NCBI GenBank assembly: GCA_944363835.1
Contig: CALVVJ010000002.1
Span: 1 to 50,801 of the forward strand
DNA from: an uncultured Bacilli bacterium
GTDB lineage: Bacteria > Bacillota_I > Bacilli_A > RF39 > UBA660
Direction of reading: 5' to 3'
DNA length: 50,801 bases
Shown: positions 4,859 to 25,779 of the stretch, one piece after another
Layout of the letters: every line of letters starts with the position of its first letter
Numbering within the stretch: the stretch's first letter is position 1
Translations under genes and position numbers: made by a program
Notes under the pieces: generated by a model
Told to the model about the DNA's origin: nothing
Databases searched by the model: none
Seen by the model: only the letters and a program-made list of their open reading frames with translations

Positions 4859-5668
4859 ATGAACATTATAACTTATCTAATTTTAGGAATAATTCAAGGT
4901 ATAACAGAACCATTACCAATATCTAGTAGTGGTCATATATTTTTATTCAAAAATATATTCAATACAACCATGTTTGACAGCCTAAACTTTGAAATAGTTT
5001 CTAATTTCGGCTCATTTATTGCTATATTTATTATCTTTTGGAAAGACATAAAAGAACTTATAGTTGCCTTCTTTAGTTATATTTTCAAAAAAGAAACTAG
5101 AAAAGACAATTTAGCTAAGTTTAAATATTGTTTATTCGTCATTATAAGTACTATTCCTGTTGGAATAACTGGATTTATTTTCAAAGATAAATTAGAAAGC
5201 ATGTATTCCTTAAATGGCTTAGCTATAGCCTTTTTAATAACTGCCCTTGCTTTATTCATCGTTCGCAATATGAAAGGTTCTAAAAATGATTATGATATAA
5301 CTTTAAAAGATGCTATTCTTATCGGACTTCTTCAAGCTGTAACAATTATACCGGGAATAAGTCGAAGTGGAACTGTTTTAGTAGCATGCCTTCTATGTGG
5401 TTTAAAAAGAGATACAGCACTAAAATACACCTTTATTCTTTATTTCCCTGTTAGTGTTGCTACTATGATTCTAGGAGTTAGTGATTTAGTTAATACTGCT
5501 GAATTATCGAACATGCTAGTTCCATATCTAATAGGTATGATTGCTGCTGGCATTGTTACTTATTTTTCTTATCGTTGGCTTAGTAACTGGGTTAAAAATG
5601 GTAAGCTTTGGAAATTTTCCATCTACTGTGTAATCTTAGCAATATTTATATTTATATATTTTAGATAA
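4859..5668 (+). CDS. uppP: undecaprenyl-diphosphate phosphatase
   Basis: BacA/UppP motifs GIIQGITEPLPISSSGH and PGISRSG; polytopic membrane protein. The ORF-track TTG start at 4832 would include a TATAAT box (4838-4843), so the ATG at 4859 is preferred. Confidence 0.9.
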   Translation: MNIITYLILGIIQGITEPLPISSSGHIFLFKNIFNTTMFDSLNFEIVSNFGSFIAIFIIFWKDIKELIVAFFSYIFKKETRKDNLAKFKYCLFVIISTIPVGITGFIFKDKLESMYSLNGLAIAFLITALALFIVRNMKGSKNDYDITLKDAILIGLLQAVTIIPGISRSGTVLVACLLCGLKRDTALKYTFILYFPVSVATMILGVSDLVNTAELSNMLVPYLIGMIAAGIVTYFSYRWLSNWVKNGKLWKFSIYCVILAIFIFIYFR

Positions 5669-14964: not shown

Positions 14965-15417
14965 ATGCAATCAACACGCCTAGAAGAATTACGAGAAGAA
15001 CACAATTTAACCAAAAAAGAAATTGCCAAAATTTTAAAAGTAAGCACCTCGATTTATTGTCGATGGGAAAATGATAAAGATTCTATTCCAACAACAAGAT
15101 TAAATGAATTAGCCAATTTTTATAAAATTAACATTGATTATATTTTAAAATTAACTAACAAAAAAATTTCAATGCAAGAACATAATATTAACAAAAAAAT
15201 AGTATCTGAAAGAACTAGAGAATTAAGAACAGATATGAAATATACCCTTAGAGATATTGCCAAAATATTAAATACCACCAGTTCCACTTGGTGTGCATAT
15301 GAAACTGGTAAAACTTTGATTTTATCTTCTTTTTTAATAAAAATATGCCAAGCAAGCAATACTTCTGCTGATTGGCTATTAGGAAGAACTAATATTAAAA
15401 AAAATGTTGATAATTAG
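14965..15417 (+). CDS. XRE-family regulator with two tandem HTH domains
   Basis: Two HTH_3-like units: LREEHNLTKKEIAKILKVSTSIYCRWEN...DYIL and LRTDMKYTLRDIAKILNTTSSTWCAYETG...ADWLLGR. Confidence 0.8.
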   Translation: MQSTRLEELREEHNLTKKEIAKILKVSTSIYCRWENDKDSIPTTRLNELANFYKINIDYILKLTNKKISMQEHNINKKIVSERTRELRTDMKYTLRDIAKILNTTSSTWCAYETGKTLILSSFLIKICQASNTSADWLLGRTNIKKNVDN

Positions 15418-15437
15418 TTGCTTACTAACATCAACAT
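15404..15437. repeat. 34-nt hairpin-forming direct repeat, left copy (bidirectional terminator)
   Basis: ATGTTGATAATTAGTTGCTTACTAACATCAACAT matches 16709-16742 at 33 of 34 positions, and the A/T-rich flanks are similar. Outer stem ATGTTGAT/ATCAACAT, inner stem TTAGT/ACTAA. Confidence 0.85.
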
Positions 15438-16288
15438 TATTTATTTTCAAGTTGTTTTTCTTCTATATATTTATAACTCAATGCATTATCACTAACAACT
15501 ACAGATTCACCAAGTCTAGCTTCAATATCTTTTCTGGTATTACTTGCTACTTGCCCGCCTTCTTTAGCAATTTTTCTATTTTCATTTAAACCAATTGGCT
15601 TATGTTTTTTAGCCAGTTCTCTAGCAGTTAATTCTCCAATATCAGCAAGAGCTATTTCAATATCACTCATATTATCTCTTAAAGATTCTTTTCTAAGGCC
15701 TTTAAATTCTTTATACTCCTTAGCAGTCATTCCTGACCATTCTTTATAAATATCATTAGTTAAAATGGCATACTCAATATTACTTTCAATACCACCAGCT
15801 TTCCACACATCAGTTAATTTCTTTCTCTCCTGTATCCCTTTAATTCTTTTAGCAATCCAATCTTCATCATAGCCTTTTGCACGATATGTATCAACAGCCC
15901 TTTGCACAGTTAAAGAAGGATCAAAAACTTCATCAATTCGTTCACTACCAAGTCTTGCTAACCATTGCTTAATTGGTTCTGCATTTTTTGATGGAATGGA
16001 CTCAATAATACGAAACATTCCCTCAATATCAGTTACATCAGTTAAACGATATTTGCCATCTTTAGCTTTAAGTTTCAAAGCGTGACAATTTGTCACGGTT
16101 TCATTTCCTTCTGCTTTTAATCGTTGTTTAAGTTTTCGCCAATAAGCAGTACAATCTTTACTTTGTGATAAAACTCCTACAACATCCACAACACTAACAT
16201 AATACTTTTCTTCTTCCTTATTCCATACCGTCCTAATTTCTTCACTATTAAATAATTTATTAATTAAATACATTTTATCTTGATTCAC
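15437..16288 (-). CDS. Bro-N domain protein (antirepressor / DinD-like)
   Basis: Bro-N-like N-terminal region (VVDVVGVLSQSKDCTAYWRKLKQRL...KYRLTDV...IIESIPSKNAEPIKQWL). The probable start is the GTG at 16288, 7 nt after AAGGAGG; the ORF-track ATG is at 16306. Confidence 0.7.
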   Translation of the reverse strand: MNQDKMYLINKLFNSEEIRTVWNKEEEKYYVSVVDVVGVLSQSKDCTAYWRKLKQRLKAEGNETVTNCHALKLKAKDGKYRLTDVTDIEGMFRIIESIPSKNAEPIKQWLARLGSERIDEVFDPSLTVQRAVDTYRAKGYDEDWIAKRIKGIQERKKLTDVWKAGGIESNIEYAILTNDIYKEWSGMTAKEYKEFKGLRKESLRDNMSDIEIALADIGELTARELAKKHKPIGLNENRKIAKEGGQVASNTRKDIEARLGESVVVSDNALSYKYIEEKQLENK

Positions 16289-16306
16289 AAAACCACCCTC
16301 CTTCAT

Positions 16307-18729: not shown

Positions 18730-21540
18730 TTATTTTACAACAATATTGACAATTCTTCCTGGTATGACAATTATTTTGACAATCTCCTTACCATCAATAT
18801 GTCTCTTTACATTTTCTTCATTCAAAGCTTTACTCTTAATGCTTTCTTCATCTTCATTAATAGAAATTTTTATTGAAGCTCGAAGTTTACCATTTACTTG
18901 TACACCAATTTCCTTTTCATCATCAATCGTTTTTGCTTCATCATATTTCGGCCAAATGCTTTCACATATTGGTTTATAACCCAATTCTTCATTCAACTCT
19001 TCAGTAATATGTGGAGCAATTGGATTAAGCAAAGTAAGCAATACATGATAATCTTCTCTAGTAATATTTTCTAATTCATCATAAGCATTTGTTAAAATCA
19101 TCAAAGTTGATATCGCTGTATTAAATGACATTGTAACTAAATCGTTTTGTACTTTCTTAATACTTTTGTGAATTATTTTTTCTAAATTCTTGGAATAATT
19201 ATCTCCATCAACTACTTTATCTTTCAAACGAATTACTTTATCTAGAAATCTCTTACATCCCTTTAATGAATCTGTATTCCATGGGCAATCACTTTGATAA
19301 TCTCCCATAAACATTTCATAAACTCGCAATGTATCTGCTCCAAATTCATTAACAATATCATCAGGATTTACTACATTACCTTTAGATTTACTCATCTTTT
19401 GATTATCACTACCAAGTACCATACCATGACTTACTCTTGTCCAAATCATTTCTTTACTTGGAACTAAACCAATATTATATAAAAATTGGACCCAGAATCT
19501 TGCATATAATAAGTGTCTTGCTGTATGTTCCATACCACCATTATACCAATCGACTCTTCGCCAATATTTCATCGCATCCATTCCCGCAAATTCTTTATCG
19601 TTATGTGGATCCATAAATCTTAAGAAATACCAACTTGATCCAGCCCAATTTGGCATTGTATCCGTTTCTCTTTTGGCAGGTCCTCCACATTTTGGACAAG
19701 TTGTATTCACCCAATCCGTAATCTTAGCTAGCGGACTTTCTCCATTGTCTGTAGGTTCATATTCCGCAACATCAGGAAGTAATAATGGCAAATCTTCTTC
19801 ATGCATCGGTTGCCAACCGCAATGTTCACAATAAATCATTGGAATTGGTTCACCCCAGAATCTTTGTCTTGAGAAAATCCAATCACGCATTTTATAATTA
19901 ACTTGTTTTTTACCACACTTATGTTCTTCTAAAAATTCTAACATCTTATTAATTGCATCTTCTTTATTTAAACCATCTAAGAATTCTGAATTAATATGTA
20001 TACCATCGCCTTCCATAGCTCCAGGTTTCATTGCATATTCAAAAGTTTTCTTATGAAGTCCATCGTTTACTTCTGCCATAATAGTACTCTTATCTACCCA
20101 TTCCAAATCAAATTTTTCATCATCATCCAAATTTTGATTATCTTGTTTATTACTTTTTAATTTAAATAAGAAACCTGTAGATTCTATATTAAAGTACTTA
20201 TCTTTATTGTAAGCATAATAATGATGATTTATCTTAGGAAGTTCGCAAACTAATTCAATATCTTTATATCCTGTTTCTTCTCCAATTTCTCGTTTAGCAC
20301 ACTCTATTGCCGTTTCTCCATCTTTAATAGTTCCTCCAATAAACAAACGGCCTCCCATTTCATGCCAATTAATTGTCAAATATTTATCATTATCTTCATC
20401 ATACAATATTGCTACAATCGAATTTTTCTTAGTTTCCCCTTCATGAGGCATTCCTGTTACTTCTTCCAATACTTGAATAATTGGAATATTGAATTTCATA
20501 GCAAACTCATAATCTCGTTCATCATGAGCAGGAACTGCCATAATAGCTCCAGTACCATAACTAGCAAGAACATAATCACTTATATAAATAGGTATTTTAA
20601 CCCCATTCACTGGATTAATAGCATAAGCCCCAGTAAAAACACCTGTTTTTTCCTTATTAAGTTCCGTTCTTTCCATTTCGTTTTTTAATAAGCAAGCTTC
20701 TTTATAGGCCTCTACTTCTTTTTTATGTTCATCAGCAGTTATTACATCCACTAATTTATGTTCTGGTGCAAGTACACAATAAGTTGCTCCAAATAAAGTG
20801 TCACATCTCGTTGTAAACACCGTAAACTCTTCTTCATGACCATCTATTTTAAATGTTACTTCTGCTCCAATCGACTTACCAATCCAATTAATTTGCCCAA
20901 GTTTTACCTTTTCCGCAAAGTTAGTATCATCTAATCCCTTAAGCAAATCTTCTGAATAATCACTCATTCGAAGCATCCATTGACTTTTTTCCTTCTGAAC
21001 AACTTGGGTACCACATCTTTCACATACTCCTCCAGCTGCATCTTCATTAGACAAAACTGTTTTACAATTTGGACACCAATTTACAGGAACTGTATCTTTA
21101 TAAGCCATTCCATGTTTATAAAATTCTAGAAATTGCCATTGTGTCCATTTATAATATTCAGGATCTGTCGTTGAAAATTCTCTATCCCAATCAAAGGAAA
21201 AACCTAAAGTTTGCATTTGTCTTTTAAATGTTTTAATATTTTCCTTTACAGCTTCTTTCGGATGAATATGATTCTTTATCGCATATTGTTCTGCTGGAGC
21301 CCCAAAAGCATCCCATCCCATTGGAAACAAAACATTATATCCTTGCATCCGCATCATTCTAGCCATTGCATCTTGGGCTGTATAACTCCGAACATGTCCA
21401 ACATGAAGCCCTGAACCAGATGGATAAGGAAATTCCACCAAAATATAATAAGGTTCTTTATTACTTCCCGTAACTGCCTCAAAACTTTTATGTTCTTCCC
21501 AATATTTTTGCCATTTTTTTTCTATTTTTTTACTATTCAT
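18730..21540 (-). CDS. leuS: leucine--tRNA ligase with an inserted Nudix-box domain
   Basis: HIGH (LHVGHVRSY), KMSKS (QKMSKSKGN), CP1 motifs TTRCDTLFG and GTGAIMAVPAHDERDYEFA, and YKMRDWIFSRQRFWGEPIP. At 936 aa it has an extra ~150-aa block that includes GTIKDGETAIECAKREIGEETGY. Confidence 0.95.
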   Translation of the reverse strand: MNSKKIEKKWQKYWEEHKSFEAVTGSNKEPYYILVEFPYPSGSGLHVGHVRSYTAQDAMARMMRMQGYNVLFPMGWDAFGAPAEQYAIKNHIHPKEAVKENIKTFKRQMQTLGFSFDWDREFSTTDPEYYKWTQWQFLEFYKHGMAYKDTVPVNWCPNCKTVLSNEDAAGGVCERCGTQVVQKEKSQWMLRMSDYSEDLLKGLDDTNFAEKVKLGQINWIGKSIGAEVTFKIDGHEEEFTVFTTRCDTLFGATYCVLAPEHKLVDVITADEHKKEVEAYKEACLLKNEMERTELNKEKTGVFTGAYAINPVNGVKIPIYISDYVLASYGTGAIMAVPAHDERDYEFAMKFNIPIIQVLEEVTGMPHEGETKKNSIVAILYDEDNDKYLTINWHEMGGRLFIGGTIKDGETAIECAKREIGEETGYKDIELVCELPKINHHYYAYNKDKYFNIESTGFLFKLKSNKQDNQNLDDDEKFDLEWVDKSTIMAEVNDGLHKKTFEYAMKPGAMEGDGIHINSEFLDGLNKEDAINKMLEFLEEHKCGKKQVNYKMRDWIFSRQRFWGEPIPMIYCEHCGWQPMHEEDLPLLLPDVAEYEPTDNGESPLAKITDWVNTTCPKCGGPAKRETDTMPNWAGSSWYFLRFMDPHNDKEFAGMDAMKYWRRVDWYNGGMEHTARHLLYARFWVQFLYNIGLVPSKEMIWTRVSHGMVLGSDNQKMSKSKGNVVNPDDIVNEFGADTLRVYEMFMGDYQSDCPWNTDSLKGCKRFLDKVIRLKDKVVDGDNYSKNLEKIIHKSIKKVQNDLVTMSFNTAISTLMILTNAYDELENITREDYHVLLTLLNPIAPHITEELNEELGYKPICESIWPKYDEAKTIDDEKEIGVQVNGKLRASIKISINEDEESIKSKALNEENVKRHIDGKEIVKIIVIPGRIVNIVVK

Positions 21541-21769
21541 CTTTCTTCCAACCTTTCTTAACTAAATGTCTACCTAATAATTCATATAATGCATAAATAA
21601 GTCCAAATAAGAGGACAAATCCTAAAAGTATTTGAAAAGGTAAATCCCAAGGAATACTATAAATTACCACAAATACAAAAGAAATAATAAATGCATTAAT
21701 GAGAGATGATAATATGAATACATAATTAAGATTCATTTTATTAACATCGAGTTTAAACTTGGGAATCAA
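21533..21769 (-). CDS. small membrane protein; probably the distal part of a TAG-interrupted gene starting at 21931
   Basis: 78-aa ORF with two TM segments and no visible RBS. It is in frame with the RBS-preceded 22-codon ORF 21863..21931. It overlaps the leuS start by 8 nt. Confidence 0.5.
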   Translation of the reverse strand: MIPKFKLDVNKMNLNYVFILSSLINAFIISFVFVVIYSIPWDLPFQILLGFVLLFGLIYALYELLGRHLVKKGWKKDE

Positions 21770-21942: not shown

Positions 21943-22134
21943 AAAAATAAAAAAGATGGTTCCTAAAGGACGAGTTTTCCCGTGGTACCACCTTAATTGC
22001 TTCTTTAATAATTGATAAGGAAATTACCCCAATACATCCAAAAGCAAGTTCAATTATTATGTTCATTAGTTTCCACCAACCACTAATTCTCTATTAAAAC
22101 AATCATAATTTACTACTCTTTTTTCATCTGCTTG
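21943..22134 (-). promoter_or_regulatory. T-box riboswitch leader, Leu (CUU) specifier
   Basis: On the minus strand: Stem I start GCAGATGAAAAAAGAGTAG; AGAGA plus the distal GTGGTTGGTGGAAAC; specifier context GAA-CUU-G (CUU at 22046-22048); T-box AAGGTGGTACCACGG (about 21979-21996). Terminator GGTGGTACC...GGAACCATC is followed by TTTTTTATTTTT (21943-21992). Confidence 0.8.
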
Positions 22135-22140
22135 TAACAT

Positions 22141-22169
22141 ATTATATTAGATTTCTGCTAAGTATTCAA
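22141..22169 (-). promoter_or_regulatory. sigma-A-type promoter for the T-box/leuS unit
   Basis: Minus strand TTGAAT (22164-22169), 17 nt, TATAAT (22141-22146). It overlaps the last codons and stop of the GH31 gene. Confidence 0.55.
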
Positions 22170-24555
22170 GTAGTTTTATAAACATTCTTACAAATCTTCT
22201 ATCTAATCCATGTAATTTTTTTATTCTAATTCTCTTTACTTTTATATCTAAATCACTAAAGAATATATTAGCTATCTCTTCTTTTAATTTAGTTGTTATT
22301 TTTAAATCACTAATAATAGAATTAACATCTTCATTAATAATTCTAACTGCATTAATTTCAATGTCTTTTCCTTTACAATTAACTGTTAATTGTTTTGTCG
22401 TATCGACATTTTTTATATCAACTACAAAATCGTTTTCATCTTCATAGCATTCATACTCTAAATTAGCCATTTCTCCGTTTAAAAATATTTCTACGCTATC
22501 AGCAGTTCTTGTATTTCTAAAACGAATTTTATAATCCCTCAATCTTGGAATTATTTCTGTTTTTCCTTCTGTTGGATGAATAATTAATGTATAGTTATTT
22601 TGTAAATAATTATAATCTATATCCGTAACTATATAATACCCTTCTTCATGTAATTTAGTTATACCATCATCTTCATATAATTTAAAGACGTTACTTTGTC
22701 CCGGAAATACATTTATTTCCATACTTCGTGGAACATTCGTATCATTAATATTTTTTTCCAAATTAGCCAATGGTATTATTGCTCCAGCTCGAGCAAATAT
22801 TGGATATTCTTCTTCTTTATAAAACACTACATATCTTTTATTACCTACAAACTTTTTTCCCGTTTTAAAATCATACCAAATACCTTTGGGCAAAAATACT
22901 CTTTCGATTGACCTATTCATTGTAATATCTTTTGGCTTAGTAATTGGAGCAATAAATAATTCTTTTCCAAAATAATACTCATTCCGATAAGTTGGTTCAT
23001 CGTAAATTTCCGGATAAGTATAATATATCGGTTGGATTAAAGGCCTACCTGTTTTATGATACTCATACGCTGCCGTATATAAATATGGAATAAGCCTTTG
23101 ACGAAGCCAACAATACTCACGAGCAATCGTAAATGTTTTTACATCCCACATCCAAGGCTCTCTTTTGTAATAAACTCCTCTTTTAGCACTAAATCTAAAT
23201 ATTGGACTAAAAGTTGAAAACTGAACGTATCGCAGATACAACTCGCTATCTTCAATTCCATCTTTATATCCCCCAACATCATGACTCCACCAAGAAACTC
23301 CTTTGTTCGCAGCCATTGAATTATAAAAAGGCAAAAACTTAAGAGTATCCCAAGAAACAATAGTTTCTCCCGAATATAAGATTCCCGCCCGATGCGGCGC
23401 AACTAATGGACTACGTGTCAAAACTAAAGGTCTTGTGTTTTTTATTCTATCAAAATCTTTATTATAATAATATTGTAAAACCTGTATAGTATCTAAATCT
23501 TTTTTATAATCCAACCAAAACAAATCGACACCAACATCCAACAATGGATCGATTAAATGTTTTACATATGCTGCCATAAAATTTTTATCAAAAGCATTAA
23601 AAGGAATTGTTACCCCATCTGCTACATTTAATTCCTCCGCAACATTTAAATATCTTTCTTCTTCTTTTCTTACACCTTCACTAGGATCTATATTAAGACC
23701 TATTCTTACACCTCGATCATGCATATATTTTATAAAATCTGCTGGATTTGGGAATAAATCTCGATTAAAAGAAAACCCGGTGCGATATAAATTATAATCT
23801 TTAGGATCTTTGATATGCCAAAATTCACTTAATAATAATACTGATAAAGGAATTTGATATCTATTAAACGCTTTAATTAATGATTTAGAATCATCAAATC
23901 CATATATTTTTTCTCTATTCCACCATATTCCTAAAGAATATCTAGGAATTAATGGCGGATATCCAGTTAACATGAAATAATCCCTTAAACACATACCAAA
24001 ATCTCTTTTATACATGAATAGATAAAGGTCTACTTTATTTACATCTGGTTTTTTCATAAAACCACTAGCATCTATTTCAAAATTACCAGAATCATCAATT
24101 GAAACAAAACCATCAGTTGAATATAACCCTTTATCAAGTCTTACTCTACCTTTATAATCATCTAAACTTATAGCTCCACCTTTAAAATTACGAGCCTCTG
24201 CTTGACCATAAAACCACATCTTATCAGTATTTAGTAACACTACCTTCAAATTAGAATCTGGAGCAAACTTTGGCCCTAAAAATGGCTTGTTCTTCAAATA
24301 TTGTAACATAAAATAACTAGTAGTAATTACTAAATAAGTTTGATCTTGTTCTACCTTAAATTGTGGAACACTAAACTTTCGATTCCTAACTAAAGTTGTC
24401 AAATCATCAGAAAAATGTCCATCAACACTATATTCAAGACGAACCAATCTTTCACTTAAAACAGTAATTCGATAATTTTGTCCTCGAAACACAGCCCGTT
24501 CATTAGCTTCTGACTTAGTTAAATCTGGAGCAAAATGGGCATCAAAACTAGCCAT
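22147..24555 (-). CDS. glycoside hydrolase family 31 (alpha-glucosidase / alpha-xylosidase-like)
   Basis: GH31-like blocks GVDLFWLDY (nucleophile region) and WWSHDVGGY, at a size typical of the family. The ATG at 24555 is preferred over the TTG at 24558. Confidence 0.75.
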   Translation of the reverse strand: MASFDAHFAPDLTKSEANERAVFRGQNYRITVLSERLVRLEYSVDGHFSDDLTTLVRNRKFSVPQFKVEQDQTYLVITTSYFMLQYLKNKPFLGPKFAPDSNLKVVLLNTDKMWFYGQAEARNFKGGAISLDDYKGRVRLDKGLYSTDGFVSIDDSGNFEIDASGFMKKPDVNKVDLYLFMYKRDFGMCLRDYFMLTGYPPLIPRYSLGIWWNREKIYGFDDSKSLIKAFNRYQIPLSVLLLSEFWHIKDPKDYNLYRTGFSFNRDLFPNPADFIKYMHDRGVRIGLNIDPSEGVRKEEERYLNVAEELNVADGVTIPFNAFDKNFMAAYVKHLIDPLLDVGVDLFWLDYKKDLDTIQVLQYYYNKDFDRIKNTRPLVLTRSPLVAPHRAGILYSGETIVSWDTLKFLPFYNSMAANKGVSWWSHDVGGYKDGIEDSELYLRYVQFSTFSPIFRFSAKRGVYYKREPWMWDVKTFTIAREYCWLRQRLIPYLYTAAYEYHKTGRPLIQPIYYTYPEIYDEPTYRNEYYFGKELFIAPITKPKDITMNRSIERVFLPKGIWYDFKTGKKFVGNKRYVVFYKEEEYPIFARAGAIIPLANLEKNINDTNVPRSMEINVFPGQSNVFKLYEDDGITKLHEEGYYIVTDIDYNYLQNNYTLIIHPTEGKTEIIPRLRDYKIRFRNTRTADSVEIFLNGEMANLEYECYEDENDFVVDIKNVDTTKQLTVNCKGKDIEINAVRIINEDVNSIISDLKITTKLKEEIANIFFSDLDIKVKRIRIKKLHGLDRRFVRMFIKLLEYLAEI

Positions 24556-24587
24556 CAAACTTCACCCTTTTCTCTATTAGAATATTA

Positions 24588-25676
24588 TCATTTTTCTTGG
24601 TATTTATCAATTATTTCTTTTAAAAATTCATCACTTTCAAAATAATCTATCTTCATTGCTTGCTTAACTTTTTTTAAAGTACCTTGAGCATATTCTCGAG
24701 CATCTTTTGTTCCTTTTTCTAAAACTCGATAAACATACTCAATATTTTGACTCAACGCTTCCCGTCTTTCTCTTATTGGTTTTAATAATTCTTGTAAAAT
24801 ATTATTCAAGAATTTCTTAATAACCATATCTCCAAGACCTCCCCTTTGATAATGGGCTTTGAGTTCATCTAAATTCTTATACTCCGGCAAATACTTTACA
24901 AAATCTTCATCTTTAGCAAAAACATCTAAATATGTAAATACTACATTACCTTCAACTTGCCCTGGATCGTCAACTTTAATATGATTTGGATCTGTATACA
25001 TACTCATTACTTTCTTTTTAATTGTTTCCGCATCATCTGCTAAATAGATACAATTACCTAAGGATTTACTCATCTTTGCTTTTCCATCAGTCCCAGGTAA
25101 CCGTTGTTCTACTTCACTATCTGGTATTTTCGCCTCAGGCATTACTAAAGTTTCACCATAAATGTTATTAAAACTATGAACAATCTCTCTAGTTTGTTCA
25201 ATCATTGGTAATTGATCTACTCCAACTGGCACACAAGTAGCATCAAATGCAGTAATATCTGCTGCTTGACTTATAGGATAATTTAAAAATCCCACTGGGA
25301 TACTTTTCTCAAATCCCCGTAATCCGATTTCATTTTTTACTGTTGGATTTCTTTGCAATCTACTCAAAGTTACCAAATTCATATAATAAAATGTAAGTTC
25401 CGTAAGTTCACTAACTTCTGATTGAACTAAAATTGTAGTCTTTTCTGGATCTATTCCTACCGCCAAATAATCTAATGCCACTTCCATAACATTATCCCTT
25501 ACTTTACTAGGATTATCAAAATTATCTGTTAAAGCCTGAGCATCAGCTATCATAATATATATTTTGTCAAATTCTCCACTATTTTGTAAAGCAACTCTAT
25601 TTTTTAAAGAGCCAACATAATGTCCTAAATGTAAACGTCCTGTAGGACGATCTCCAGTTAATATAATCTTTTTCAT
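24588..25676 (-). CDS. trpS: tryptophan--tRNA ligase
   Basis: [19 protein letters not shown] (HIGH region) and KMSKS. The ATG at 25676 follows GGAGG; the ORF-track ATG at 25688 overlaps that RBS. Confidence 0.85.
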
Positions 25677-25779
25677 TGCAACCTCCATATTTACAATATT
25701 ATAACATGAGAAAACAAGAAAAACTATTGTAAAATTATAACTCGTGTTATAATAAACTTATATCGAAGGAGGTTTTTAC

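What the first reader, a model, noticed from the sequence alone, without database searches (positions are those of the whole stretch)
20017..20466. Complete Nudix-box domain nested inside leucyl-tRNA synthetase
**What the ORF shows.** The leuS ORF has all the LeuRS landmarks: HVGH, KMSKS, CP1 editing motifs TTRCDT and GTGAIMAVPAHDERDYEFA, and the core re-entry YKMRDWIFSRQRFWGEPIP. It is 936 aa.

**Where the extra sequence sits.** Between ...FNIPIIQVLEE and GDGIHINSEFLDGL there are about 150 residues (roughly aa 359-508). In the bacterial LeuRSs I know (E. coli, B. subtilis) this is only a short connector.

**Why it looks like Nudix.** The block contains an exact Nudix box, G-x5-E-x7-R-E-U-x-E-E-x-G-U, as GTIKDGETAIECAKREIGEETGY (nt 20269-20337). 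It is preceded by a beta-strand-like SIVAILYDEDNDKYLTINW and followed by FDLEWVDKS, which is the layout of a whole Nudix fold.

**Interpretation (inference).** A pyrophosphohydrolase module embedded in an aaRS editing domain could act on Ap4A-type by-products, on aminoacyl-adenylates, or have a regulatory role. I know of no description of such an architecture.
Basis: partly seen in the sequence, partly recalled or inferred. Interest (0 to 1): 0.8.

Follow-up and report, generated by a model that had tools for sequence, protein, structure and literature searches.

The report
Nudix hydrolase nested inside leucyl-tRNA synthetase
The enzyme that charges leucine tRNA in this gut bacterium carries a complete, conserved nucleotide-pyrophosphate-cleaving (Nudix) domain spliced into a loop of its proofreading domain; this layout is shared by over 100 related species and by many ultra-small (CPR) bacteria, and I found no paper describing it.

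Summary
leuS (18730-21540, minus strand, 936 aa) is a complete bacterial LeuRS. About 147 extra residues (aa ~361-510) replace an 11-residue connector inside the CP1 editing domain. The extra segment matches Pfam NUDIX (49 bits, cut-off 21), has an exact Nudix box and is predicted to fold as a Nudix domain (pLDDT 92.8).

It is not an assembly artefact. At least 110 species-level genomes of uncultured gut Bacilli carry the same insert, and every full-length locus examined has it nested in a ~940-codon leuS. The catalytic residues are invariant, and dN/dS (0.23) equals that of the rest of the enzyme.

More distant LeuRSs, all named ones from Patescibacteria (CPR), carry one to three related Nudix domains at three sites.

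The closest solved relatives are Ap4A/Ap6A hydrolases and RppH, and the insert has the downstream tyrosine typical of ApnA hydrolases.

My best reading is an active dinucleoside-polyphosphate hydrolase tethered to an enzyme class that makes Ap4A. Neither the substrate nor any coupling to LeuRS is tested. The main rival is a housekeeping enzyme parked in a permissive loop.

I found no literature on this architecture. A 2026 survey reports that this editing domain never hosts an insertion. I rate it a new variant of a known kind.

The parts
18730..21540 (-). leuS coding sequence, 936 aa: bacterial-type leucyl-tRNA synthetase carrying the nested Nudix domain
   Evidence: ORF. NCBIfam TIGR00396 leuS_bact scores 968.9 bits against a cut-off of 548.4. 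The T. thermophilus LeuRS match has E = 2.3e-220. The AF2 model has pLDDT 88.3 and TM 0.82-0.83 to solved LeuRS structures.
20017..20466 (-). Inserted segment, aa 359-508. The true extra sequence is about aa 361-510, relative to T. thermophilus residues 364-376.
   Evidence: pLDDT is 84-94 in the full-length model. GC 0.30 and GC3 0.17 are similar to the rest of the gene, 0.33 and 0.195.
20080..20421 (-). Pfam NUDIX domain match, aa 374-487
   Evidence: PF00293 scores 45-49 bits against a cut-off of 21.1. The model of the insert alone has pLDDT 92.8 and the order strand-strand-strand-helix-strand-strand-strand-helix-helix. Foldseek gives probability 1.00 to many Nudix structures.
20266..20334 (-). 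Nudix box G403-x5-E409-x7-R417-E418-I-x-E421-E422-x-G424-Y425
   Evidence: G403, E409, R417, E418, E421, E422 and G424 are invariant in 71 aligned clade members.
20185..20229 (-). Family-specific X-loop motif NHHYYAYNKDKYFNI (aa 438-452). Tyr441/Tyr442 lie 16-17 residues after the box, followed by Lys446.
   Evidence: Almost every residue is invariant in the clade. Across 145 related domains, 112 have an aromatic pair [FY][FY] at these positions and 130 have the Lys. This position corresponds to the X-loop Tyr marker of ApnA hydrolases.
20467..20883 (-). CP1 editing domain, N-terminal part (aa 220-358), with TTRCDT and GTGAIMAVPAHDERD editing-site motifs intact
   Evidence: PF13603 scores 208.5 bits, with aa 218-366 matching model positions 2-147 of 185. 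T243, T244, R245, D247, T248, D340 and D343 are invariant in alignment A1.
19906..20016 (-). CP1 editing domain, C-terminal part after the insert (aa 509-545), leading back into the catalytic core
   Evidence: The alignment to T. thermophilus LeuRS resumes at query 508 = residue 376.
21394..21405 (-). HVGH (HIGH) signature of the aminoacylation site
19384..19398 (-). KMSKS signature of the aminoacylation site
21963..22136 (-). T-box leader upstream of the leuS operon. The probable specifier is CUU (Leu).
   Evidence: Rfam RF00230 scores 99.1 bits against a gathering score of 93. The specifier was read from the cmscan alignment and is an inference.
21533..21769 (-). Conserved 78-aa hydrophobic small ORF between the T-box and leuS, overlapping the leuS start by 8 nt
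   Evidence: tblastn finds it at the same position in 55 of 80 related loci. It has no Pfam hit.

Best explanation
**What it is.** leuS encodes what appears to be the cell's housekeeping LeuRS, under a leucine T-box. A catalytically competent Nudix pyrophosphohydrolase domain is nested in a surface loop of its CP1 editing domain. The domain belongs to a distinct Nudix family that also exists as free-standing proteins of about 160 aa. Its nearest characterised relatives are the dinucleoside-polyphosphate (Ap4A/Ap6A) hydrolases and RppH.

**Most likely mechanism (inference).** The domain binds Mg2+/Mn2+ through E418, E421 and E422. It cleaves Ap4A/Ap4N-type dinucleoside polyphosphates asymmetrically to ATP (or NTP) plus AMP. 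These are the compounds that aminoacyl-tRNA synthetases make when ATP attacks the bound aminoacyl-adenylate. Tyr441/442 of the X-loop would stack on the base, and Lys446 would contact the phosphate chain.

**Consequence of nesting (inference).** Placing the hydrolase inside LeuRS fixes its dosage to that of a translation enzyme. It also puts it next to a source of the substrate, in organisms with small genomes.

**Shown.**
- The architecture and the predicted fold.
- The intact motif and purifying selection on it.
- The phyletic spread and the similarity ranking.

**Inferred.**
- Catalytic activity.
- The substrate.
- Any coupling to LeuRS chemistry.
For: **Domain identity.**
- The Pfam NUDIX match is above threshold.
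- AF2 predicts a Nudix fold at pLDDT 92.8.
- It is embedded in a canonical LeuRS model.

**Conservation.**
- Nudix-box residues are invariant in 71 clade members.
- They are intact in 58 of 71 site-A domains of divergent LeuRSs.
- dN/dS of the insert is 0.23, against 0.24 for CP1 and 0.21 for the core.

**Nearest relatives.**
- A profile of the family hits A. aeolicus Ap4A hydrolase 3I7U best (E = 3.6e-14). Next come CT771, 2AZW and lupin Ap4A hydrolase.
- Foldseek top hits are 2AZW, E. coli RppH (one entry bound to Ap4A, 7SP3), 3I7U (target-normalised TM 0.82, rmsd 2.6) and T. thermophilus Ap6A hydrolase Ndx1.
- Tyr441/442 lie 16-17 residues after the box. This is the X-loop position where a Tyr correlates with ApnA hydrolase activity (Dunn et al. 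1999, as summarised in PMC5389931).

**Substrate source.** Ap4A/Ap4N are produced mainly by aminoacyl-tRNA synthetases, and Nudix Ap4A hydrolases cleave them to ATP + AMP (PMC13627108).

**Recurrent link to tRNA synthetases.**
- LeuRSs carry the domain at three different sites in 1-3 copies.
- One IleRS-like protein carries it.
- A free-standing relative sits directly upstream of thrS in one lineage.

**Housekeeping role.** The T-box leader, with a probable CUU specifier, argues that this is the housekeeping LeuRS.
Against: - No enzymology exists for any member.
- Scores to curated equivalogs are far below cut-off: RppH 30.9 against 118, MutT 25 against 98. Nudix substrate specificity is notoriously hard to read from sequence.
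- E-values to non-ApnA Nudix enzymes are only a few orders of magnitude weaker.
- LeuRS is not known as a strong Ap4A producer (my own knowledge, not tested here).
- CPR LeuRSs also carry unrelated nested enzymes: Ham1/ITPase and a serine hydrolase. An IleRS-like protein carries a histidine phosphatase as well. This fits a 'permissive loop' explanation with no functional coupling.
- Five of seven sampled free-standing relatives are not near any synthetase gene.
- About 18% of embedded copies have E409 and/or R417 substituted.
- The tools returned no model coordinates or PAE, so the geometry of the Nudix site relative to the LeuRS sites is unknown.
- I could not check whether these genomes lack YqeK, ApaH or other Nudix genes.
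Confidence: 0.45

Rival explanations
1. Hitch-hiking housekeeping enzyme. The Nudix domain is an active 'house-cleaning' pyrophosphatase of some other specificity, for example oxidised or non-canonical nucleotides or ADP-ribose. It was captured in a structurally permissive CP1 loop of an essential, well-expressed gene in genome-reduced bacteria. It works independently of LeuRS, and the fusion only guarantees co-expression and retention.
For: - CPR LeuRSs carry other nested small enzymes with no obvious link to leucylation: Ham1/ITPase in P0092 and a serine hydrolase in P0100.
- An IleRS-like protein, P0063, carries Nudix plus a histidine phosphatase.
- The carriers are small-genome lineages: Patescibacteria and uncultured gut Bacilli.
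- Most free-standing relatives have unrelated neighbours.
- Divergence of the Nudix domain correlates only weakly with divergence of the LeuRS core (Spearman 0.12).
Against: - The same Nudix family, not assorted Nudix families, recurs at three sites in LeuRS, in an IleRS-like protein and next to thrS.
- Up to three copies per LeuRS is hard to explain by simple gene parking.
- The nearest characterised relatives act on ApnA, a product of tRNA synthetases.
Confidence: 0.3
2. RppH-like RNA 5'-end enzyme. The domain removes pyrophosphate or Np4-type caps from the 5' ends of RNAs, with LeuRS serving as an RNA-binding platform.
For: - E. coli RppH structures make up most of the top Foldseek hits (TM about 0.67).
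- The best NCBIfam hit, though far below cut-off, is RNA pyrophosphohydrolase, both for the insert and for the free-standing relatives.
- Dcp2 is the best single-sequence PDB hit.
Against: - Scores are far below the RppH equivalog cut-off, 30.9 against 118.
- RppH itself is an ApnA hydrolase by ancestry, so the similarity does not separate the two activities.
- There is no evident reason to tether an mRNA-decay enzyme inside the editing domain of one synthetase.
- The 3' end of the tRNA, not its 5' end, visits CP1 (established LeuRS structural knowledge).
Confidence: 0.12
3. Non-catalytic module. The Nudix fold serves as a structural, regulatory, nucleotide-sensing or tRNA/protein-binding domain, as in CFIm25 and other inactive Nudix proteins.
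For: - Some copies in multi-Nudix LeuRSs have a degenerate box (E409 to Q/D, R417 to A/M/K). This includes the single copy in the Moranbacteria enzyme P0143.
- Non-enzymatic Nudix proteins are known (PMC5389931).
Against: - In the window's clade all seven Nudix-box positions (G403, E409, R417, E418, E421, E422, G424) are invariant across 71 sequences that are 66-90% identical overall in the insert.
- Even the degenerate copies keep the three Glu of REUxEE.
- Purifying selection equals that on the catalytic core.
Confidence: 0.08
4. A new proofreading site. The Nudix domain hydrolyses misactivated aminoacyl-adenylates, or adenylate-mimicking antibiotics, released from the synthetic site.
For: The only support is its location inside the editing domain of an editing synthetase.
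Against: - Aminoacyl-adenylates are mixed acyl-phosphate anhydrides of a nucleoside monophosphate, not nucleoside diphosphate-X compounds. No Nudix enzyme is known to use them (my own knowledge).
- The canonical CP1 editing site is intact, so no gap in proofreading needs filling.
Confidence: 0.04
5. Assembly chimera, or a frameshifted juxtaposition of two genes.
For: None. A few short database 'proteins' with only the Nudix part exist.
Against: - The same nested architecture is found in 110 species-level genomes from many independent studies and assemblers.
- More than 120 protein clusters of 935-940 aa share it.
- The apparent stand-alone copy P0004 is a frameshift-ridden leuS.
- The composition of the insert matches the rest of the gene.
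Confidence: 0.01

Closest known systems
Nudix dinucleoside-polyphosphate hydrolases: A. aeolicus Ap4A hydrolase (PDB 3I7U), C. trachomatis CT771 (4ILQ), lupin Ap4A hydrolase (1F3Y), T. thermophilus Ndx1 Ap6A hydrolase (1VC8)
   Same: - Best profile-to-sequence hits in the PDB and among the best fold matches (target-normalised TM 0.79-0.82, rmsd 2.6-3.3).
- Exact Nudix box.
- An aromatic residue about 17 residues after the box, followed by a Lys that aligns with the A. aeolicus enzyme.
   Different: - Those are free-standing proteins of 126-165 aa; this one is nested inside another enzyme.
- Identity is only 19-24%.
- The invariant NHHYYAYNKDKYFNI and GGRLF motifs are specific to this family.
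- Activity has not been tested.
E. coli RppH (NudH/YgdP), RNA 5'-pyrophosphohydrolase and ApnA hydrolase
   Same: Many RppH entries are among the top Foldseek hits (TM about 0.67). RppH is the best, though sub-threshold, NCBIfam family.
   Different: - 16-18% identity, rmsd 4-5 A.
- Score 30.9 bits against the equivalog cut-off of 118.
- No nesting in a synthetase is known for RppH.
Canonical bacterial LeuRS (T. thermophilus 1H3N/2BTE, E. coli 4AQ7/4ARC, N. gonorrhoeae 6Q89)
   Same: - Full set of synthetic and editing motifs and the same domain order.
- TM 0.82-0.83.
- E = 2.3e-220 to T. thermophilus LeuRS.
   Different: - About 147 extra residues forming a Nudix domain replace an 11-residue CP1 connector.
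- The ~44-residue leucine-specific domain of T. thermophilus LeuRS is absent.
- None of the solved LeuRS sequences that matched covers the insert.
Other synthetases carrying an extra enzyme domain, for example NCBIfam NF040702 'isoleucine--tRNA ligase, N-acetyltransferase domain-containing'
   Same: A class Ia synthetase that has acquired a small catalytic domain; the family is listed among NCBIfam models.
   Different: It has a different partner domain (GNAT) and a different host (IleRS). The window protein scores only 70.5 bits against that model's cut-off of 1999. I did not examine that family further.
Dedicated bacterial Ap4A hydrolases YqeK (HD domain, Bacillota) and ApaH (Gammaproteobacteria)
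   Same: Possible functional analogues: they control the Ap4N made by tRNA synthetases (PMC13627108).
   Different: Unrelated folds and symmetric cleavage chemistry, and they are free-standing genes. Whether the carrier genomes lack them could not be tested.

Membership tests
Nudix hydrolase superfamily (Pfam PF00293) | Profile score at or above Pfam's gathering threshold | tested here: met
   45.2 bits for the whole protein and 49.1 bits for the insert alone, against 21.1.
Nudix hydrolase superfamily (Pfam PF00293) | Nudix box G-x5-E-x7-R-E-U-x-E-E-x-G-U | tested here: met
   GTIKDGETAIECAKREIGEETGY at aa 403-425. The key residues are invariant in 71 relatives.
Nudix hydrolase superfamily (Pfam PF00293) | Alpha/beta/alpha sandwich fold with the box forming a loop-helix-loop | tested here: met
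   The AF2 model has pLDDT 92.8, and helix 58-70 of the model covers the box. Foldseek gives probability 1.00 and TM up to 0.82 to solved Nudix enzymes. This is a prediction, not an experimental structure.
Nudix hydrolase superfamily (Pfam PF00293) | Metal-dependent hydrolysis of a nucleoside diphosphate-X substrate | not testable with these tools
   Needs enzymology.
Nudix ApnA (Ap4A/Ap6A) hydrolase subgroup | Tyrosine in the X-loop about 16-18 residues after the Nudix box; no ADP-ribose Pro marker and no NADH SQPWPFPxS marker | tested here: met
   Y441 and Y442 lie 16 and 17 residues after Y425, and no SQPWPFPxS is present. The marker is defined in PMC5389931, citing Dunn et al. 1999. The marker correlates with the activity but is not proof of it.
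Nudix ApnA (Ap4A/Ap6A) hydrolase subgroup | Closer to characterised ApnA hydrolases than to other Nudix subfamilies | tested here: inconclusive
   Three of the top four profile hits are Ap4A hydrolases. However, an uncharacterised Nudix (2AZW) and RppH rank equally well by fold, and the margins are small.
Nudix ApnA (Ap4A/Ap6A) hydrolase subgroup | Asymmetric cleavage of Ap4A to ATP + AMP | not testable with these tools
   Needs enzymology.
RppH (NCBIfam NF001936 and related equivalogs) | Score at or above the curated equivalog cut-off | tested here: not met
   30.9 bits against 118.
MutT 8-oxo-dGTPase (TIGR00586) | Score at or above the curated cut-off | tested here: not met
   25.2 bits against 97.9.
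Bacterial leucyl-tRNA synthetase (TIGR00396 leuS_bact) | Score at or above the curated equivalog cut-off | tested here: met
   968.9 bits against 548.4, matched in three stretches interrupted at the insert.
Bacterial leucyl-tRNA synthetase (TIGR00396 leuS_bact) | HIGH and KMSKS class I signatures | tested here: met
   HVGH at aa 46-49 and KMSKS at aa 715-719.
Bacterial leucyl-tRNA synthetase (TIGR00396 leuS_bact) | CP1 editing domain with the Thr-rich motif and the conserved Asp of GTGxxMxVPxHDxRD | tested here: met
   TTRCDT at aa 243-248 and D340/D343 are present. PF13603 scores 208.5 bits, and these residues are invariant in A1.
Bacterial leucyl-tRNA synthetase (TIGR00396 leuS_bact) | It is the organism's only, housekeeping LeuRS | tested here: inconclusive
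   A T-box leader with a probable CUU specifier lies upstream, and the gene is conserved in 110 species. The rest of the genome could not be searched for a second leuS.

The most novel reading that the evidence does not exclude
The tethered Nudix domain is functionally coupled to aminoacylation. It would act as a third hydrolytic 'clean-up' site on LeuRS that destroys Ap4N-type side products (or related adenylylated by-products) at their source and returns ATP. More broadly, the class Ia synthetases of genome-reduced bacteria (Patescibacteria and reduced gut Bacilli) would serve as scaffolds into which nucleotide house-cleaning enzymes (Nudix, Ham1/ITPase, phosphatases) are repeatedly nested. 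The CP1 editing domain would then be a host for insertions, contrary to a 2026 survey that found it is never one.
Probability: 0.2. Interest if true: 0.8.

Novelty: new variant of a known kind. Interest (0 to 1): 0.62.

Why it matters
**A doubly nested architecture.** Extra domains on aminoacyl-tRNA synthetases have repeatedly revealed new biology. Here a second catalytic domain sits inside the editing domain, which itself sits inside the catalytic domain.

**It runs against a recent survey.** A 2026 survey of 2.7 million domains recorded no case of the LeuRS editing domain acting as a host (PMC13114784).

**It is widespread and selected.**
- It is conserved under purifying selection in over 100 gut species.
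- It is widespread in CPR bacteria, in up to three copies per protein.

**If the domain is an Ap4N hydrolase.** It would physically link production and removal of the alarmone Ap4A in one polypeptide. That would give a clean experimental system, the wild type against an E-to-Q mutant, for an old question: whether synthetase-made Ap4A is a signal or a by-product.

**Annotation.** These proteins are currently named 'class I tRNA ligase family protein', or even 'RdgB/HAM1 family pyrophosphatase'.

Tried and rejected
1. **Stand-alone ancestor close to the insert.** P0004 (138 aa, Nudix only, 66% identical) looked like a free copy. Its contig shows a leuS shattered by frameshifts, so I rejected it. 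P0003 (Nudix core with unrelated flanks on a 1.5-kb contig) was not pursued and may be a chimera.

2. **Gene-neighbourhood link between the free-standing family and synthetases.** Two of seven sampled contexts place the gene directly upstream of thrS, but both share one synteny block, so they probably represent one event. The other five have unrelated neighbours. This is weak evidence only.

3. **One ancient insertion or repeated insertions.** I correlated pairwise identity of the LeuRS core with that of the Nudix domain over 27 full-length proteins. Spearman was 0.12, and both measures are near saturation, so the result is inconclusive.

4. **Geometry of the Nudix site relative to the editing and synthetic sites.** The structure tool returns no coordinates or PAE, so this could not be measured.

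5. **Curated functional assignment.** No NCBIfam equivalog is reached, either for the insert or for ten free-standing relatives.

6. **Literature.** Seven full-text searches combined LeuRS, tRNA synthetase or tRNA ligase with Nudix, Ap4A hydrolase, CPR or Patescibacteria. None found a description. The 2017 review of the Nudix clan mentions neither tRNA nor synthetase.

7. **dN/dS.** Synonymous divergence is about 1.0, near saturation, so the ratios are approximate.

Full report
**1. The observation**

The window holds a 936-codon ORF at 18730-21540 on the minus strand.
- HVGH at aa 46-49 and KMSKS at aa 715-719;
- the CP1 editing motifs TTRCDT and GTGAIMAVPAHDERD;
- the core re-entry sequence YKMRDWIFSRQRFWGEPIP.

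NCBIfam's bacterial leuS equivalog scores 968.9 bits against a cut-off of 548.4, in three stretches that break at the insert.

Translating 20017-20466 on the minus strand gives aa 359-508. Pfam NUDIX (PF00293) matches aa 374-487 with 45-49 bits (cut-off 21.1, E = 7.6e-13 for the segment alone). The Nudix box GTIKDGETAIECAKREIGEETGY is exact. It is the only such motif in the six-frame translation of the window.

**2. It is an insertion, nested inside CP1**

- Against T. thermophilus LeuRS, query residue 360 aligns with residue 364 and query 508 with residue 376. About 147 residues therefore replace an 11-residue connector.
- E. coli and N. gonorrhoeae LeuRS alignments break at the same place.
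- The Pfam editing-domain model is matched only up to position 147 of 185 before the insert, so the editing domain is split.
- The full-length AlphaFold model (pLDDT 88.3) superposes on solved LeuRSs at TM 0.82-0.83. Residues 360-510 are confidently folded (pLDDT 84-94).
- Modelled alone, the insert reaches pLDDT 92.8 and pTM 0.87, with a typical Nudix order of strands and helices. Foldseek matches hundreds of Nudix structures with probability 1.00.

**3. It is real and under selection**

- A scan of one genome per GTDB species found 110 stretches encoding the insert at 64-90% identity. Nearly all come from uncultured gut 'Bacilli' or 'Tenericutes' MAGs from rabbit, chicken, ruminant and human studies, including Ca. 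Onthocola stercoravium and Ca. Faecenecus gallistercoris.
- In all 80 retrieved loci where the gene is complete, the insert sits in a 935-957-codon frame.
- The 120 best full-length homologues (77-96% identical, 935-940 aa) all carry PF00293.
- In an alignment of 71 clade members, G403, E409, R417, E418, E421, E422 and G424 are invariant. So are GGRLF (396-400) and almost all of NHHYYAYNKDKYFNI (438-452).
- dN/dS of the insert (0.23) equals that of CP1 (0.24) and of the catalytic core (0.21). Synonymous sites are near saturation, so the values are approximate.
- GC and GC3 of the insert match the rest of the gene.
- The one apparent stand-alone close copy is a frameshifted leuS.

An assembly chimera is excluded.

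**4. Context**

- A T-box leader lies upstream at 21963-22136 on the minus strand (99.1 bits). In the covariance-model alignment, the triplet after the conserved GAA of the specifier loop is CUU, a leucine codon. This reading is my inference.
- Between the T-box and leuS lies a 78-codon hydrophobic ORF that overlaps the leuS start. It is conserved at that position in 55 of 80 related loci and has no Pfam match.
- These features point to the housekeeping LeuRS. I could not search the rest of the genome for a second copy.

**5. The phenomenon is much wider than this clade**

An exhaustive HMMER search with the insert found 367 representative clusters at E <= 0.001. Of the 147 best representatives that are not fragments already known, 88 have LeuRS sequence flanking the Nudix match, and 33 of these are 900 aa or longer.

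Pfam scans show that these proteins keep the editing domain and carry one to three Nudix domains. Mapping onto the window's numbering gives three insertion sites:
- **Site A**, the window's site, between aa ~358 and ~511;
- **Site B**, just before CP1, at aa ~205-240;
- **Site C**, at aa ~575-623.

All representatives that carry an organism name are from Patescibacteria: Ca. Moranbacteria (KKP58971.1), Ca. Paceibacterota and 'Patescibacteria group bacterium'.

The full catalytic set (G, E409, R417, E418, E421, E422) is intact in 58 of 71 site-A domains, 10 of 16 site-B domains and 3 of 4 site-C domains. The variants change E409 and/or R417 but keep the three Glu of REUxEE.

Some of these LeuRSs hold further nested enzymes: Ham1/ITPase in P0092, which NCBI names after that domain, and a serine hydrolase in P0100. 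An IleRS-like protein, P0063, holds this Nudix domain plus a histidine phosphatase.

**6. Where the domain came from**

A profile of the embedded domains retrieves a large family of free-standing Nudix proteins of 155-175 aa (E down to 1e-47, 40-50% identity). They share the family's features: a conserved Arg/Lys just before strand 1, the box, the [FY][FY]-x-x-x-K X-loop and a late Trp.

Two members lie directly upstream of thrS on the same strand, but in one shared synteny block. Five others have unrelated neighbours.

**7. What it probably does**

No curated equivalog is reached: RppH scores 30.9 bits against 118, and MutT 25 against 98. The ranking of similarities is nevertheless consistent:
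- The family profile hits A. aeolicus Ap4A hydrolase best (E = 3.6e-14). Next come CT771, an uncharacterised E. faecalis Nudix, and lupin Ap4A hydrolase.
- The fold search is led by that E. faecalis protein, E. coli RppH (including its Ap4A complex), the A. aeolicus enzyme (target-normalised TM 0.82, rmsd 2.6) and the Thermus Ap6A hydrolase.
- Tyr441/442 sit 16-17 residues after the box. This is the X-loop, where a tyrosine correlates with activity on diadenosine polyphosphates. The proline marker of ADP-ribose enzymes and the SQPWPFPxS marker of NADH enzymes occupy the same region in those subfamilies (PMC5389931).

Ap4A and other Ap4N are made chiefly by aminoacyl-tRNA synthetases, through attack of an NTP on the bound aminoacyl-adenylate. 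Nudix hydrolases cleave them to ATP + AMP (PMC13627108).

I therefore rank an ApnA/Ap4N hydrolase tethered to LeuRS as the most likely reading (confidence about 0.45). I am more confident, about 0.8, that the domain is an active pyrophosphohydrolase of some kind.

The main rival (0.3) is that CP1 loops are simply permissive sites where genome-reduced bacteria park small housekeeping enzymes. The Ham1, serine-hydrolase and phosphatase insertions speak for this. The recurrence of this one Nudix family at three LeuRS sites, in an IleRS-like protein and next to thrS speaks for a real link with synthetases.

The remaining readings are less likely, and the last is excluded:
- an RppH-like action on RNA 5' ends (0.12);
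- a non-catalytic role (0.08);
- hydrolysis of aminoacyl-adenylates (0.04);
- an assembly or frameshift artefact (0.01).

**8. Novelty**

Seven full-text searches found no description of a Nudix domain in LeuRS or any other synthetase. The 2017 review of the Nudix clan mentions neither tRNA nor synthetases.

A 2026 survey of domain insertions singles out the LeuRS editing domain (PF13603) as insertion-exclusive, with 'zero instances of host function' (PMC13114784). This protein family is a direct counter-example.

The sequences themselves are public, with NUDIX listed among their precomputed Pfam hits. They are named 'class I tRNA ligase family protein', 'leucine--tRNA ligase', or misnamed after a nested domain.

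Both component domains are well known and the composite appears undescribed, so I rate it a new variant of a known kind, with interest 0.62.

**9. Limits**

- No activity data exist.
- No model coordinates were available, so the position of the Nudix cleft relative to the LeuRS sites is unknown.
- Whole genomes could not be searched for yqeK, apaH or a second leuS.
- The number of independent insertion events is unresolved.

Noticed in passing
window 21963-22136 (-): A T-box leader (RF00230, 99.1 bits) lies about 420 nt upstream of the leuS start. In the cmscan alignment the triplet after the conserved GAA of the specifier loop is CUU (Leu).
   Followed up: partly
window 21533-21769 (-): A 78-codon ORF with a TTG start and two hydrophobic segments lies between the T-box and leuS and overlaps the leuS start by 8 nt. 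It is conserved at the same position in 55 of 80 related loci and has no Pfam match. It may be a small membrane protein co-transcribed with leuS.
   Followed up: partly
window 19384-19420 (-), around KMSKS: This LeuRS lacks the ~44-residue leucine-specific domain that T. thermophilus LeuRS carries just before KMSKS (Thermus residues 594-637 have no counterpart in the alignment).
   Followed up: no
proteins P0092, P0100, P0063 (Patescibacteria and metagenomes; not in the window): Distant LeuRS relatives carry further nested enzymes besides Nudix: Ham1/ITPase (P0092, named 'RdgB/HAM1 family' by NCBI although it is a LeuRS) and a serine hydrolase (P0100). An IleRS-like protein (P0063) carries this Nudix family plus a histidine phosphatase.
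   Followed up: partly
proteins P0014, P0018, P0025, P0028, P0030 (not in the window): LeuRSs with two or three Nudix domains have one copy whose box is degenerate (E409 to Q/D, R417 to A/K/Q), typically the copy just before CP1. This suggests a division of labour between active and structural copies.
   Followed up: partly
loci L082-L089, gene at 5001-5507 and its equivalents: Free-standing members of the same Nudix family (P0353, P0354) lie 70-90 nt upstream of thrS on the same strand. They sit in a conserved block: fpg, YgjV-like gene, Nudix, thrS, miaA.
   Followed up: partly
window 24588-25688 (-) and 22147-24558 (-): A class Ib synthetase gene (Trp/Tyr type, PF00579) and a family-31 glycoside hydrolase lie just upstream of the leuS operon on the same strand.
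   Followed up: no
window 14965-16306: An HTH_19/HTH_3 regulator (14965-15417, +) lies next to a Bro-N domain protein (15437-16306, -). This pair is typical of prophage or mobile-element remnants.
   Followed up: no
protein P0003 (1.5-kb ENA contig; not in the window): A 244-aa protein has a Nudix core 67% identical to the insert, but unrelated flanks and a precomputed ZT_dimer hit. It is probably a chimeric or misassembled contig.
   Followed up: no
database annotation of the window's clade (P0177, P0006): NCBI names these proteins 'class I tRNA ligase family protein' rather than leucine--tRNA ligase, although TIGR00396 scores far above its cut-off here.
   Followed up: no
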